This document shows positions 10,701-13,533 of a stretch of DNA of 52,747 nucleotides, in pieces. Every line of letters begins with the position of its first letter. Position 1 is the stretch's first letter. The notes beneath the pieces were generated by a model, which was not told the origin of the DNA, did no database searches, and saw nothing but the letters and a program-made list of their open reading frames with translations. The DNA lies in assembly GCA_044354355.1 (NCBI GenBank), contig JBILAD010000001.1, positions 1-52,747 on the forward strand, read 5' to 3'. The stretch is from Candidatus Planktophila sp. (lineage in GTDB: Bacteria; Actinomycetota; Actinomycetes; Nanopelagicales; Nanopelagicaceae). The position numbers and the translations under genes are program-made.

Positions 10701-11641
10701 GCAGCTTAGATTTTTCAACCACCATCGGAAACGTTTGGTTTCCGGCTCCGACATTTACCGCCAGTGGATGTGCAAGTTCAGGTCGGGAGTTGGCGCAGTT
10801 TTTCCCATTACGCGAAATGGGCGGAATAGTTACTAAGTCTGTGATGTCTAAGGTGCGCACGGGACGACCAACACCACGTATGGCTGAAACCCCGAGTGGA
10901 ATGCTCAATTCAATTGGCTTACAAGGCCCAGGCATTGATGCCTTTATTGCAAAAGATATTCCCTATTTGACCGAGCAAAAAGCTCGAATAATTGTCTCGA
11001 TAGCCGGAGAAACTGTCGAGGAGTATTCAACTCTTGCTAGGAAACTGCGTTCTGTTTCGGGAATAAGTGCGATTGAGGTAAATATTTCTTGTCCCAATGT
11101 TGAAAATCGAGGACTTGTTTTTGCCTGCGATCCAGAAGCTTCAAGGCGTGTTATCGATGGCGTTCGTCGAACTATTGGGGGAGAGCTTCCGATTATTGCC
11201 AAGCTTTCACCAGATGTAACTGATTTGGTGTCGATCGCTCGTGGTGTTGTTGATGCCGGGGCCGATGGTTTAGCGCTAATCAACACAGTTCTTGGAATGG
11301 TTATTAACGTTGACACGATGAGACCACATTTAGGCGGTAAGACAGGTGGACTTTCTGGTCCAGCAATTAGACCTATAGCTGTCCGTGCTGTTTACCAAGT
11401 CCATGCAGCCATGCCACAAGTTCCTATTTTAGGAATGGGCGGCGTTGCAACTGGAAAGGATGCCTTGGAAATGATTTTGGCTGGCGCTAGTGGCGTCTCA
11501 ATTGGTACAGCTAACTTCGGTAATCCAACAGCAATAATGAAGATTCAAAATGAACTAAAGCAATTATTGATTGATCGCGGTTTCACCTCGCTTAAGCAAG
11601 CTATTGGATATGCGCATCGAGCAGAAACGGAAAACAACTAA
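10697..11641 (+). CDS. pyrD: dihydroorotate dehydrogenase family 1B catalytic subunit
   Basis: MLNSIGLQGPG, EVNISCPN (Cys base), GGLSGPAIRP. Confidence 0.95.
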   Translation: MSSLDFSTTIGNVWFPAPTFTASGCASSGRELAQFFPLREMGGIVTKSVMSKVRTGRPTPRMAETPSGMLNSIGLQGPGIDAFIAKDIPYLTEQKARIIVSIAGETVEEYSTLARKLRSVSGISAIEVNISCPNVENRGLVFACDPEASRRVIDGVRRTIGGELPIIAKLSPDVTDLVSIARGVVDAGADGLALINTVLGMVINVDTMRPHLGGKTGGLSGPAIRPIAVRAVYQVHAAMPQVPILGMGGVATGKDALEMILAGASGVSIGTANFGNPTAIMKIQNELKQLLIDRGFTSLKQAIGYAHRAETENN

Positions 11642-12342
11642 TGCCTAAGGCACCCATTGTTTTAGCTGTTGACACGCCAGAGCTAGCAACGGCAATTGCA
11701 TGGGTAAAGGCAACTCAGGATCACGTGTCTGTTTACAAGCTGGGCCTTGAGTTTTATTTAACTTTTGGAAGTGATGGCGTCAAAGCCATCAAGGATGTTA
11801 CCGATTCTGACATTTTTCTCGATTTAAAGCTCCATGACATCCCACATACTGTGCGTGGGGCCGCTAAAGCGGTTTCACATTTAGCGCCACGCTTTTTAAC
11901 AGTTCATGCATCTGGTGGTGAAGCGATGATTAGGGCTGCCGTTGAATCTTCTCCTGAAACACACATAACTGGTGTGACGATATTGACCTCATTGTCAGAA
12001 GATGATGTTTCCAGTATTGGCTTTGAAAAGAATGCTCTTGATTCTGCCGTTGGTTTGGCAAGGATTGCCGTTACAGCAGGGGCTGGCGCAATTGTGTGTT
12101 CCCCTTTGGAGATTGCTGCAATTCGTTCTGCCGTCGGATCTGCTCCCATTATTATCACTCCAGGAGTTCGTCCGGCAGATACTGCAACAGGTGATGACCA
12201 AGTTCGCACCATGACTCCGAAGGCGGCTATATCTAGTGGCGCTAATTTCGTGGTCATTGGGCGTCCTATCACGCAAAGTTGGAGCCTTGGCTCCGATGCC
12301 ATGCAGGAACGTGCCGCATACATCGCATCCGAACTTATTTAG
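11641..12342 (+). CDS. pyrF: orotidine-5'-phosphate decarboxylase
   Basis: FLDLKLHDIPHTV, TPGVRP, VIGRPI. Confidence 0.96.
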   Translation: MPKAPIVLAVDTPELATAIAWVKATQDHVSVYKLGLEFYLTFGSDGVKAIKDVTDSDIFLDLKLHDIPHTVRGAAKAVSHLAPRFLTVHASGGEAMIRAAVESSPETHITGVTILTSLSEDDVSSIGFEKNALDSAVGLARIAVTAGAGAIVCSPLEIAAIRSAVGSAPIIITPGVRPADTATGDDQVRTMTPKAAISSGANFVVIGRPITQSWSLGSDAMQERAAYIASELI

Positions 12343-12363
12343 ATTAAGCGATAGATTTATCGC

Positions 12364-13239
12364 ATGGGATTACCACCGCAGTTAACACCCGAGCAGCGTA
12401 AAGAAGCTTTGCTCAAAGCTGCCATCTCGCGTAAGCGTCGCGCTGAAGTGAAAATGAAGATAAAGAGCGGTGAATTTACTATTGATTCGATTTTGGAGTT
12501 GGCTGCAACAGATGAAGCCGTTGCCAAGATGCGCGTGAAGGAGTTGTTGGAATCACTTTCTGGTGTTGGCAAAGTGCGAGCACAATCCCTTATGGAGCGT
12601 CTTAATATTTCTCAAACACGTAGGATTCAAGGATTGGGACGACTGCAAATTAAGCAACTTCGCGAGGAGTTCATGAAAGTTACACACACAGTTAAGCCAG
12701 GCAAATTGATAGTTCTTTCAGGACCAGGTGGCGTGGGAAAAAGTACTGTCGCAAAGAAGCTACGTGAAGTGGATGATTTTTGGGTTAGCGTCAGTGCAAC
12801 AACTCGCAAACCTCGTAGTAATGAAGTCGACGGCCATGATTACTTTTTCGTCAGTGATGAGGAATTTTCTCGGATGATTAATGAGGATGAATTTCTGGAG
12901 TGGGCTGAATTTGCTGGTAATCGATATGGAACTCCACAGAAAAAAGTTGAGCAGGCATTGCTATTGGGCAGAAATGTTTTGCTGGAGATTGAAATTGCAG
13001 GTGCCAAGCAAGTTAAATCACACCTGCCTCAGTCCGTTCTTGTATTTTTAGAGCCTCCTACCTGGGAGGAGTTAGTCGCTCGACTTGTGGCTCGGGGCAC
13101 CGATAGCCCGGATAGAAGGGCTGAACGCCTCCAATTAGCCCAAGAAGAGCTAGCTGCAGCCTCATTTTTTGATGTAGTCCTGATCAATGACCAGGTCGAT
13201 AGCGTGGTGGGGAAACTGATAGAGTTAGCCCATAATTAA
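12364..13239 (+). CDS. gmk: fusion of actinobacterial integration host factor (mIHF, about aa 1-103) and guanylate kinase
   Basis: N-terminus: LPPQLTPEQRKEAL, KMRVKELLESLSGVGKVRA, RRIQGLG (mIHF). C-terminus: SGPGGVGKST, SATTRKPR, YGTP (Gmk). No stop codon between them. Confidence 0.9.
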   Translation: MGLPPQLTPEQRKEALLKAAISRKRRAEVKMKIKSGEFTIDSILELAATDEAVAKMRVKELLESLSGVGKVRAQSLMERLNISQTRRIQGLGRLQIKQLREEFMKVTHTVKPGKLIVLSGPGGVGKSTVAKKLREVDDFWVSVSATTRKPRSNEVDGHDYFFVSDEEFSRMINEDEFLEWAEFAGNRYGTPQKKVEQALLLGRNVLLEIEIAGAKQVKSHLPQSVLVFLEPPTWEELVARLVARGTDSPDRRAERLQLAQEELAAASFFDVVLINDQVDSVVGKLIELAHN

Positions 13240-13284: not shown

Positions 13285-13533
13285 ATGGATGGAATCACGA
13301 ATCCACCGATTGACGAACTTCTAGACAAGAGTGGCTCTAAGTACAGCCTTGTTCTATACGCCGCAAAGCGCGCTCGTCAGATCAACGCCTATTACTCTCA
13401 ACTAGGAGAGGGCCTGCTTGAATACGTAGGACCACTCGTTGAAACTCATGTGCACGAGAAGCCACTTTCAATCGCACTTCGCGAGATCAATGAAGGTCTT
13501 CTTACAATCGAAAACCTCGAACCAACAGCTTAA
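13285..13533 (+). CDS. rpoZ: RNA polymerase omega subunit
   Basis: [39 protein letters not shown]. Confidence 0.97.

What the first reader, a model, noticed from the sequence alone, without database searches (positions are those of the whole stretch)
12364..13239. Nucleoid protein mIHF fused in frame to guanylate kinase, with a possible internal start
Seen: a complete mIHF (ending QLREEF) continues without a stop through a short linker (MKVTHTVKPGK) into a complete Gmk. An in-frame ATG at 12673 follows GAGGAG (12664-12669) by only 3 nt. Known: mihF and gmk are normally separate adjacent genes; mIHF is an abundant DNA-bending protein, and Gmk is a (p)ppGpp target in several phyla. Inference: every mIHF would carry Gmk, tethering GDP synthesis to the nucleoid or making chromosome architecture responsive to guanine nucleotides; free Gmk might be made from the internal start. 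This is my best candidate for an undescribed system.
Basis: partly seen in the sequence, partly recalled or inferred. Interest (0 to 1): 0.75.

Follow-up and report, generated by a model that had tools for sequence, protein, structure and literature searches.

The report
Nucleoid protein fused to guanylate kinase
In this lake bacterium the DNA-binding protein mIHF and the essential enzyme guanylate kinase are encoded by one continuous gene, a fusion shared by most of its family and by a second large family; the two halves likely work side by side, and in some relatives a conserved internal start likely also yields free enzyme.

Summary
Confirmed and real. 12364-13239 encodes a 291-aa protein: actinobacterial IHF (residues 5-103) joined without a stop to guanylate kinase (113-289); it is the genome's only copy of either. 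The host is Ca. Planktophila. Of 200 Nanopelagicaceae genomes sampled, 166 are shown fused and 27 split; a second family (inferred Microbacteriaceae) is fused in 141 of 151, and 9 have deleted mIHF. Both domains keep their functional residues under purifying selection, but fused mIHF drifts faster. New here: in four sister genera, 63 of 67 sequences keep an ATG/GTG/TTG in the linker (54 with an SD), with compensatory TTG/ATG swaps, the signature of a selected internal start for free Gmk. In Planktophila the internal ATG is kept in only 46 of 109, so the window's own site is plausible but unproven. Nothing found shows the domains regulating each other, and the (p)ppGpp link is weak. The scan reported this fusion before on another genome (e1-5235839); I found no paper on it. 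Verdict: new variant of known parts, moderate interest.

The parts
11641..12342 (+). pyrF (OMP decarboxylase), upstream neighbour; 21-nt gap to the fusion gene
12352..12357 (+). TAGATT, -10-like hexamer exactly 6 nt before the ATG: likely leaderless promoter of the fusion gene
   Evidence: TAnnnT at this spacing in 101 of 108 Planktophila and 17 of 19 g19 sequences; genome background 99 of 596 first ATGs, 3 of 1564 inner ATGs
12364..13239 (+). mihF-gmk fusion ORF, 291 aa
   Evidence: AlphaFold pLDDT 95.5, pTM 0.71
12364..12672 (+). mIHF/sIHF domain (residues 1-103): long N-terminal helix, H2TH turn (GVGKVRA) and basic lid (ISQTRRIQGLG) intact; 21 K+R against 13 D+E
   Evidence: alignments to 4ITQ and 6TOB; the two DNA-contact regions are named in PMC3627587 section 24
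12664..12669 (+). GAGGAG (Glu-Glu codons), SD-like; modest strength at usable spacing
   Evidence: both codons GAG in 16 of 16 nearest EEFMK sequences
12673..12675 (+). in-frame ATG (Met104), candidate internal start for a 188-aa free Gmk; unproven in this species
12673..12699 (+). linker (about residues 104-112); lowest-confidence part of the model
   Evidence: pLDDT 71 for residues 101-110; lid-to-P-loop length 24-25 aa in 102 of 103 Planktophila sequences
12700..13230 (+). guanylate kinase domain (residues 113-289), P-loop at 12721-12744; no C-terminal tail
13217..13225 (+). TGATAGAGT, extended -10 motif (TGnTAnnnT) inside the last gmk codons: likely promoter of rpoZ
   Evidence: present in 201 of 201 fused Nanopelagicaceae sequences against 18 of 2814 control windows
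13285..13533 (+). rpoZ (RNA polymerase omega), downstream neighbour
   Evidence: start placed at the in-frame ATG seen

Best explanation
The gene is an old, inherited fusion of mihF and gmk that encodes a two-domain protein whose halves likely do their usual jobs side by side: the mIHF half is predicted to bind DNA without sequence preference and the Gmk half is predicted to turn GMP into GDP. Shown: the fusion, its spread, intact functional residues, purifying selection on both halves, faster drift of fused mIHF, and its deletion in some relatives. Inferred: the fusion arose when a stop was lost or a frame slipped between two abutting operon genes; it ties mIHF output to that of a housekeeping enzyme, so mIHF is likely demoted from a very abundant chromosome organiser to a lower-copy DNA tether, with HU carrying the bulk role. 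In Planktophila the full-length protein is likely made from a leaderless mRNA starting at 12364. In genera g18, g20, g21 and g26 a selected SD-led start in the linker likely makes a second product, free Gmk; at 12673 in this species that is about even odds (0.45).
For: Single copy in G000. Fused in 166 of 200 family genomes, split in 27 and in 141 of 151 genomes of family f23. The step is short: split sister genera overlap or abut the two genes (ATGA, TGATG, TAATG), G210 has them in frame with one TAA, and 53 of 400 phylum genomes have them in one frame with 1-3 stops. Invariant in 136 of 136 aligned fusions: mIHF R23, R26, G69, Q95 and Gmk S144, T147, R148, R151, Y160, E179, Y188, E208, R244, R255, E262. 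dN/dS 0.065 (mIHF) against 0.036 (Gmk) over 33 disjoint Planktophila pairs; mIHF/Gmk distance ratio 0.87-1.10 in split outgroups and g22, g24, g25 against 1.17-2.00 in fused groups. mIHF cleanly deleted in 9 f23 genomes, pyrF running up to gmk. HU present in 45 of 45 genomes. [quoted passage not shown] Internal start: best of 284 column pairs, 54 of 67 with start+SD, next non-overlapping column 0.25; in g20 the Leu codon is TTG in 16 of 16 sequences lacking the next-codon ATG (0 changes on the tree) and in 1 of 15 that have it (7 changes), the neighbouring Leu codon changing 5 and 7 times. Anti-SD present in 5 of 5 complete genomes.
Against: Fixation across two large families, with a narrow linker length (24-25 aa lid to P-loop in most Nanopelagicaceae, 24-35 in f23), fits a benefit as well as tolerance, and 53 of 400 genomes sit close to fusion without having fused. 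Faster mIHF drift is not specific to fusion: split g23 has ratio 1.50. The expression data are shallow and one value is suspect (the same 47.387 RPKM stands for acI-B gmk and for the inferred free mihF of acI-C); that free mihF is itself below the clade median, so low expression may precede fusion. RNA around the g20 internal start is more folded than most windows (median percentile 0.14), not less. No internal-start signal in g19+g28 (23 sequences), 63 Planktophila sequences or f23 (35). No protein, ribosome-profiling or enzyme data exist here.
Confidence: 0.6

Rival explanations
1. Adaptive coupling: the fusion is a nucleotide-sensing nucleoid protein or 'trigger enzyme'. GMP, GDP or (p)ppGpp binding to Gmk would change DNA binding by mIHF, or tethering would supply GDP at the nucleoid, and the internal start would set the ratio of tethered to free enzyme.
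For: Fixed in two families, probably independently, plus one further genome (G895). Linker length narrow. Selection to keep free Gmk in four genera implies the fused enzyme is not equivalent to the free one. The genome has a Rel enzyme. A C-terminal eGFP fusion leaves sIHF functional and on the nucleoid (PMC3627587 passages), so Gmk would probably be carried to DNA.
Against: Linker sequence is not conserved between genera; the model's linker is its weakest part and pTM 0.71 does not fix the domain orientation; the Gmk half ends 173-178 residues after the P-loop motif in most Nanopelagicaceae groups, without the C-terminal tail that promotes pppGpp binding in B. subtilis GMK (PMC6783271 section 11; tail deletion had the opposite effect in E. 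coli, so this lowers but does not exclude sensitivity); mIHF was deleted in 9 f23 genomes and the genes are split again or still in g23 and g25. Nucleotides diffuse across a cell this small very fast (general knowledge), so tethering gains little.
Confidence: 0.22
2. Functionally still two proteins: the full-length product is minor or is cut in the linker, so cells hold mostly free Gmk (internal start) and free mIHF (proteolysis or frameshift), and the 'fusion' is a gene-level economy only.
For: Selected internal start in g18, g20, g21, g26; exposed low-confidence linker; an out-of-frame TGA overlaps the internal start in g18, g20 and the window (NTG-A).
Against: No internal-start signal in g19, g28, most Planktophila or f23; no conserved cleavage or slippery motif seen in the linkers; the A after the start is what A-rich second codons give anyway (general knowledge), and g21 mostly lacks the TGA.
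Confidence: 0.12
3. The mIHF half is a vestige on its way out, kept only as a translated leader for gmk.
For: Faster drift in fused groups and complete loss in 9 f23 genomes; H2TH turn eroded in g18, g26, g27 and f23.
Against: dN/dS of 0.065-0.09 in Planktophila, g18, g19 and g20; invariant basic residues; net charge kept at about +8 to +12; no truncations among the fused Nanopelagicaceae examined.
Confidence: 0.05
4. Assembly or sequencing artefact removing a stop codon.
For: The genome is a 139-contig, 77%-complete assembly.
Against: Independent contigs cross the junction unchanged; complete single-contig genomes are fused.
Confidence: 0.01

Closest known systems
sIHF (SCO1480, PDB 4ITQ/6BEK) and mIHF (Rv1388, PDB 6TOB); NCBIfam NF041260, Pfam PF22525
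   Same: Full-length match over residues 1-103 (E 2.7e-25 and 9.6e-22); both DNA-contact regions of sIHF (H2TH turn, lid) present; same place between pyrF and gmk.
   Different: Carries a 188-aa enzyme at its C-terminus; leaderless-type start in Planktophila where the class outgroups are SD-led (8 of 8); drifts faster; apparently not highly expressed; dispensable in some relatives whereas essential in M. tuberculosis (PMC6155035).
Bacterial guanylate kinase (TIGR03263, PF00625; nearest structures M. tuberculosis 1S4Q/1ZNW)
   Same: P-loop, GMP-binding and lid arginines conserved; fold match TM 0.88 by target length, rmsd 2.2.
   Different: N-terminal DNA-binding domain; no C-terminal dimer tail of the S. 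aureus/E. coli type; in some genera predicted to be made in two lengths. Databases label the whole fusion only 'guanylate kinase'.
Bacterial genes with in-frame internal starts giving two isoforms (infB IF2-alpha/beta, clpB, cheA; recalled, not from a call)
   Same: SD-led NTG inside an ORF that releases the C-terminal domain(s) as a second protein.
   Different: Here the site lies at an old gene boundary and would restore the ancestral free enzyme; evidence is comparative only.
Trigger enzymes / enzyme-DNA-binding bifunctionals (PutA, BirA, NadR, PepA; recalled, not from a call)
   Same: One chain with a metabolic enzyme and a DNA-binding part.
   Different: Those bind specific operators and are ligand-switched; mIHF-type binding is sequence-independent (PMC3627587) and no switching is shown here.

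Membership tests
actinobacterial IHF (mIHF/sIHF) | profile score above the curated cut-off of NF041260 | tested here: met
   120.9 bits against 60
actinobacterial IHF (mIHF/sIHF) | long N-terminal helix plus four-helix H2TH core with basic lid | tested here: met
   model helices 9-35, 40-49, 58-63, 70-79, 93-107; alignment to 4ITQ
actinobacterial IHF (mIHF/sIHF) | small stand-alone protein of about 105 aa | tested here: not met
   no stop after residue 103; only copy in the genome
actinobacterial IHF (mIHF/sIHF) | binds and compacts DNA, abundant on the nucleoid | not testable with these tools
   only indirect: residues kept; shallow RNA data suggest modest expression
guanylate kinase (EC 2.7.4.8) | TIGR03263 equivalog score above cut-off | tested here: met
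   218.2 bits against 160.45
guanylate kinase (EC 2.7.4.8) | intact P-loop, GMP site and lid arginines (unlike inactive MAGUK domains) | tested here: met
   roles of the residues recalled; P-loop columns were also a selection filter for the alignment
guanylate kinase (EC 2.7.4.8) | GMP + ATP to GDP + ADP activity | not testable with these tools
   needs assay; it is the genome's only Gmk match
(p)ppGpp-inhibited GMK (B. subtilis/S. aureus type) | C-terminal tail that holds the partner's lid open | tested here: not met
   domain ends about 9 residues after the end of its alignment to the 207-210 aa S. aureus chains; PMC6783271 section 11
(p)ppGpp-inhibited GMK (B. subtilis/S. aureus type) | inhibition by (p)ppGpp | not testable with these tools
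   Rel present; the primary paper was not held
genes with a selected in-frame internal start | start-type codon with SD kept at nucleotide level beyond protein needs (sister genera g18, g20, g21, g26) | tested here: met
   63 of 67 start, 54 of 67 with SD, best of 284 column pairs; compensatory TTG/ATG
genes with a selected in-frame internal start | the same in the window's genus | tested here: inconclusive
   ATG in 46 of 109; both Glu codons GAG in 16 of 16 nearest kin, but 6 of 31 Glu columns are fixed GAG in that set; Val at this position is GTG in 2 of 10 sequences shown
trigger enzymes (ligand-switched DNA binding) | ligand at the enzyme site changes DNA binding | not testable with these tools
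   no data

The most novel reading that the evidence does not exclude
The most abundant freshwater Actinobacteria, and separately the Microbacteriaceae, have turned their nucleoid protein into a guanine-nucleotide-sensing chromatin enzyme: DNA binding by mIHF is switched by the nucleotide state of the attached Gmk, and a conserved internal start tunes the balance between a nucleoid-bound and a free kinase isoform, coupling chromosome state directly to GTP supply.
Probability: 0.2. Interest if true: 0.78.

Novelty: new variant of a known kind. Interest (0 to 1): 0.5.

Why it matters
mIHF is essential and very abundant in mycobacteria, yet two large groups of Actinobacteria, including the dominant lake bacteria, make it only as a passenger on an essential enzyme, and some have dropped it. 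That is hidden in databases, which call the protein 'guanylate kinase', so inventories of nucleoid proteins in these groups are wrong. It gives a natural series (split, fused, fused with internal start, split again, lost) for asking how much mIHF a cell needs and whether a nucleoid protein can be wired to nucleotide metabolism. The internal start is a clean, testable case of a fused gene keeping its old second start under selection.

Tried and rejected
Interface between the halves: one complex prediction (residues 1-104 with 110-291) gave no answer, score 0.00 against a mark of 0.32; it counts neither way. One origin for all fusions by transfer: the domain tree puts split g22 with the fused Nanopelagicaceae (support 97) and f23 apart (100), but holding all fused rows in one clade was not rejected (p-AU 0.168), so independent origin is favoured, not proven. 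One clean origin inside the family: rejected on RpoB (p-AU 0.004, 19 fused against 10 rows; fewest changes 2); gain and loss cannot be told apart. Ranking expression from public RNA runs: only contigs were available, which cannot rank genes; runs X17 and X19 gave 0 and 1 pieces. Local RNA folding as support for the internal start: mixed (g18 0.93, g26 0.96, g21 0.48, g20 0.14, nearest kin 0.50). A programmed frameshift to free mIHF: considered because of the overlapping TGA, dropped for want of a conserved slippery site. Phage records: none of 107 matching records covered 80% of the fused query. Literature: no paper on the fusion in searches (open-access PMC and bioRxiv only; most subscription papers are not searched). 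The primary paper on (p)ppGpp and GMK was not held. One search stopped on a script error and was finished. The careful RpoB tree did not finish; quick trees were used.

Full report
Observation. The window holds one open frame at 12364-13239 (291 aa) in the order pyrF, this gene, rpoZ, coaBC, metK. Residues 5-103 score 120.9 bits on NF041260 (actinobacterial IHF, cut-off 60) and 113-289 score 218.2 bits on TIGR03263 (guanylate kinase, cut-off 160.45). It is the only match for either domain in the genome (77% complete). Contigs from other public runs cross the junction without an indel, including two 100-nt contigs of an RNA run, which does not by itself prove transcription. The nearest named records are Ca. 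Planktophila.

Spread. Of 24 genus genomes drawn, 20 have the junction assembled and all 20 are fused; 3 gave no match and 1 a weak one. In 200 genomes of the family (with rows completed), 166 are shown fused (genera g1, g18-g21, g26-g29), 27 are split (all of g22, g23, g24, g25), 6 have one strong match that I did not open, and 1 has none. Among 400 phylum genomes the top 150 rows show 53 with the two genes in one frame separated by 1-3 stops (two of these, G630 and G624, are flagged unpublished) and only 4 fused, all of family f23. A class sample of 400 adds f23 again and one lone genome, G895, whose three family members checked are split; weaker fusions below the listed rows could be missed. 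In f23, 141 of 151 genomes from 96 genera are fused at the junction, 9 have Gmk alone and 1 is cut by a contig end. f23 is inferred to be Microbacteriaceae: its protein's best named match is a 298-aa Microbacterium gene annotated only 'guanylate kinase'. The ESM Atlas has clusters of 59-529 members with both Pfam domains under the same plain name. In the 9 Gmk-only genomes (1.2-2.2 Mb, 92-100% complete) NF041260 finds nothing over cut-off genome-wide, pyrF ends 5-68 nt before the Gmk P-loop in 8 of 9, and an f23-specific profile finds no remnant: mIHF was deleted.

History. On RpoB, split g24 and g22 branch first; split g23 and g25 sit inside the fused crown beside fused g27. Holding the fused genera together is rejected (p-AU 0.004; fewest changes 2, quick tree, 29 rows). 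So either one fusion was later re-split or it arose three or more times. The domain tree follows the species tree and separates f23, but a single fused clade is not rejected (p-AU 0.168). Split sister genera overlap or abut the genes, so fusion is one small mutation away.

Are both halves alive? The mIHF half aligns end to end with sIHF and mIHF and keeps the H2TH turn and the basic lid that contact DNA in the sIHF crystal (PMC3627587, section 24 and passages read). In 136 aligned fusions R23, R26, G69, Q95 and eleven Gmk active-site positions are invariant (lid and P-loop columns were also selection filters and are not counted). The model is confident for both domains (pLDDT 95.5) and weakest in the linker (71), pTM 0.71; its best fold match is a guanylate kinase. 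dN/dS is 0.065 for mIHF and 0.036 for Gmk over 33 disjoint Planktophila pairs, 0.086 and 0.068 over 11 g20 pairs; in f23 mIHF exceeds Gmk in 14 of 14 pairs (absolute values unreliable at high GC). Relative to Gmk, mIHF distance from outgroups is 0.87-1.10 in split outgroups, g22, g24 and g25, and 1.17-2.00 in fused groups, but also 1.50 in split g23. So mIHF is kept but less tightly. HU is present in 45 of 45 genomes tested.

Expression signals. A TAnnnT hexamer lies exactly 6 nt before the first ATG in 101 of 108 Planktophila and 17 of 19 g19 sequences (window 12352-12357), against 99 of 596 first and 3 of 1564 inner ATGs in this genome: the mark of a leaderless promoter. In g18, g20, g21 and g26 it is nearly absent (2 of 66) and the gene starts within 5 nt of, or overlapping, the pyrF stop in 60 of 66; f23 is similar (22 of 24). 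An extended -10 motif in the last gmk codons is present in 201 of 201 fused family sequences against 18 of 2814 control windows, probably the rpoZ promoter. In a Lake Mendota metatranscriptome (PMC5574706; passages and rows of the supplementary workbook read) the gmk cluster has 0 RPKM in acI-A, 47 in acI-B and 22 in acI-C; acI-C has a separate gene between pyrF and gmk, which I infer to be free mihF, at 47 RPKM, below its clade median. The data are shallow and the two values of 47.387 are identical, so one may be an error. mIHF is among the ten most abundant proteins in M. tuberculosis (PMC6155035; passages and section 6 read).

The internal start. The amino acid changes among Leu, Met and Val while the codon stays a start type: g18 TTG 11, GTG 2 of 13; g26 TTG 3 of 3, where TTG is 22% of Leu codons. 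In g20 the Leu codon is TTG in 16 of 16 sequences without a following ATG and in 1 of 15 with one; on the tree it changes 0 and 7 times, the neighbouring Leu codon 5 and 7 times, and the ATG state 5 times. The anti-SD is present in 5 of 5 complete genomes. Against: local RNA in g20 is more folded than average, and kin are not independent. No such signal appears in g19+g28 (23), 63 Planktophila sequences or f23 (35). The window belongs to a Planktophila branch with the Met (46 of 109; 20 of the 46 with an SD; the group was defined by that Met). Its 16 nearest kin all write Glu-Glu as GAG GAG, but 6 of 31 Glu columns are fixed GAG in that set, and the window's SD (-5.3) is matched by 260 of 1564 inner ATGs. 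I put use of 12673 at about 0.45.

(p)ppGpp. The genome has Rel. GMK is inhibited in several phyla, and in B. subtilis this depends on a C-terminal tail of the partner subunit, while deleting the tail made E. coli GMK weakly sensitive (PMC6783271, section 11 and passages read); a passage in PMC6892785 says regulation differs within Actinobacteria. The fused Gmk has no such tail. The primary paper was not held. The link is therefore possible but unsupported.

Mechanism. Most likely (0.6) the fusion makes a two-domain protein whose halves work side by side, with mIHF output tied to that of a housekeeping enzyme, relaxed constraint on mIHF, and free Gmk restored by an internal start in one clade. 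Adaptive nucleotide sensing (0.22), effective separation by cleavage or internal start (0.12), a vestigial mIHF (0.05) and artefact (0.01) are the rivals.

Novelty. Seven searches (listings seen) found no paper on the fusion; the library lacks most subscription papers. The scan noted the same fusion and its presence in Microbacteriaceae earlier on another genome (e1-5235839); a word search for an internal start found nothing. The internal-start signature, the promoter turnover, the nested split genera and the loss of mIHF were worked out here. Both parts are known families; the arrangement is a new variant. Interest 0.5.

Noticed in passing
L264-L272 (G966, G1056, G968, G1058, G992, G1075, G1027, G1031, G1040; family f23): Nine mostly small, 92-100% complete genomes have no detectable actinobacterial IHF at all; pyrF runs straight into a plain gmk. 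On the RpoB tree the five tested fall in two separate groups, so the loss may have happened more than once.
   Followed up: partly
window 13217-13225: Extended -10 motif TGnTAnnnT inside the last gmk codons, in 201 of 201 fused family sequences: likely a separate rpoZ promoter. f23 has TAnnnT there in 30 of 35 and a Leu codon that is TTG in 79% against 8% background.
   Followed up: partly
window about 13147-13152 (Gmk Glu262 column, 144 codons after the P-loop motif): This Glu codon is GAG in 85-100% of sequences in Planktophila, g18, g20 and g21, above the gene averages of 44-60%; an unexplained nucleotide-level constraint.
   Followed up: no
L111 (G210, genus g23): mihF and gmk in the same frame, separated only by TAA directly followed by ATG: a one-base step from fusion.
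   Followed up: yes
L274 (G895, family f123): A lone fused gene; three other family members checked are split. Possible third independent fusion or an assembly slip.
   Followed up: partly
G000 whole genome: 99 of 596 long ORFs have TAnnnT 6 nt before their first ATG, against 3 of 1564 inner ATGs: leaderless transcripts look common in this Planktophila genome.
   Followed up: no
L391 (G982) and L109: G982 has the fused junction but a frame break inside Gmk, and L109's match spans 1028 nt instead of about 870; possibly sequencing errors or an insertion in an essential gene.
   Followed up: no
L261 (NZ_CP072877.1, 437223-442996): A Microbacterium record labelled 'plasmid' carries the chromosomal pyrF-gmk-rpoZ-metK region, with two Fic-family ORFs inserted between gmk and rpoZ.
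   Followed up: no
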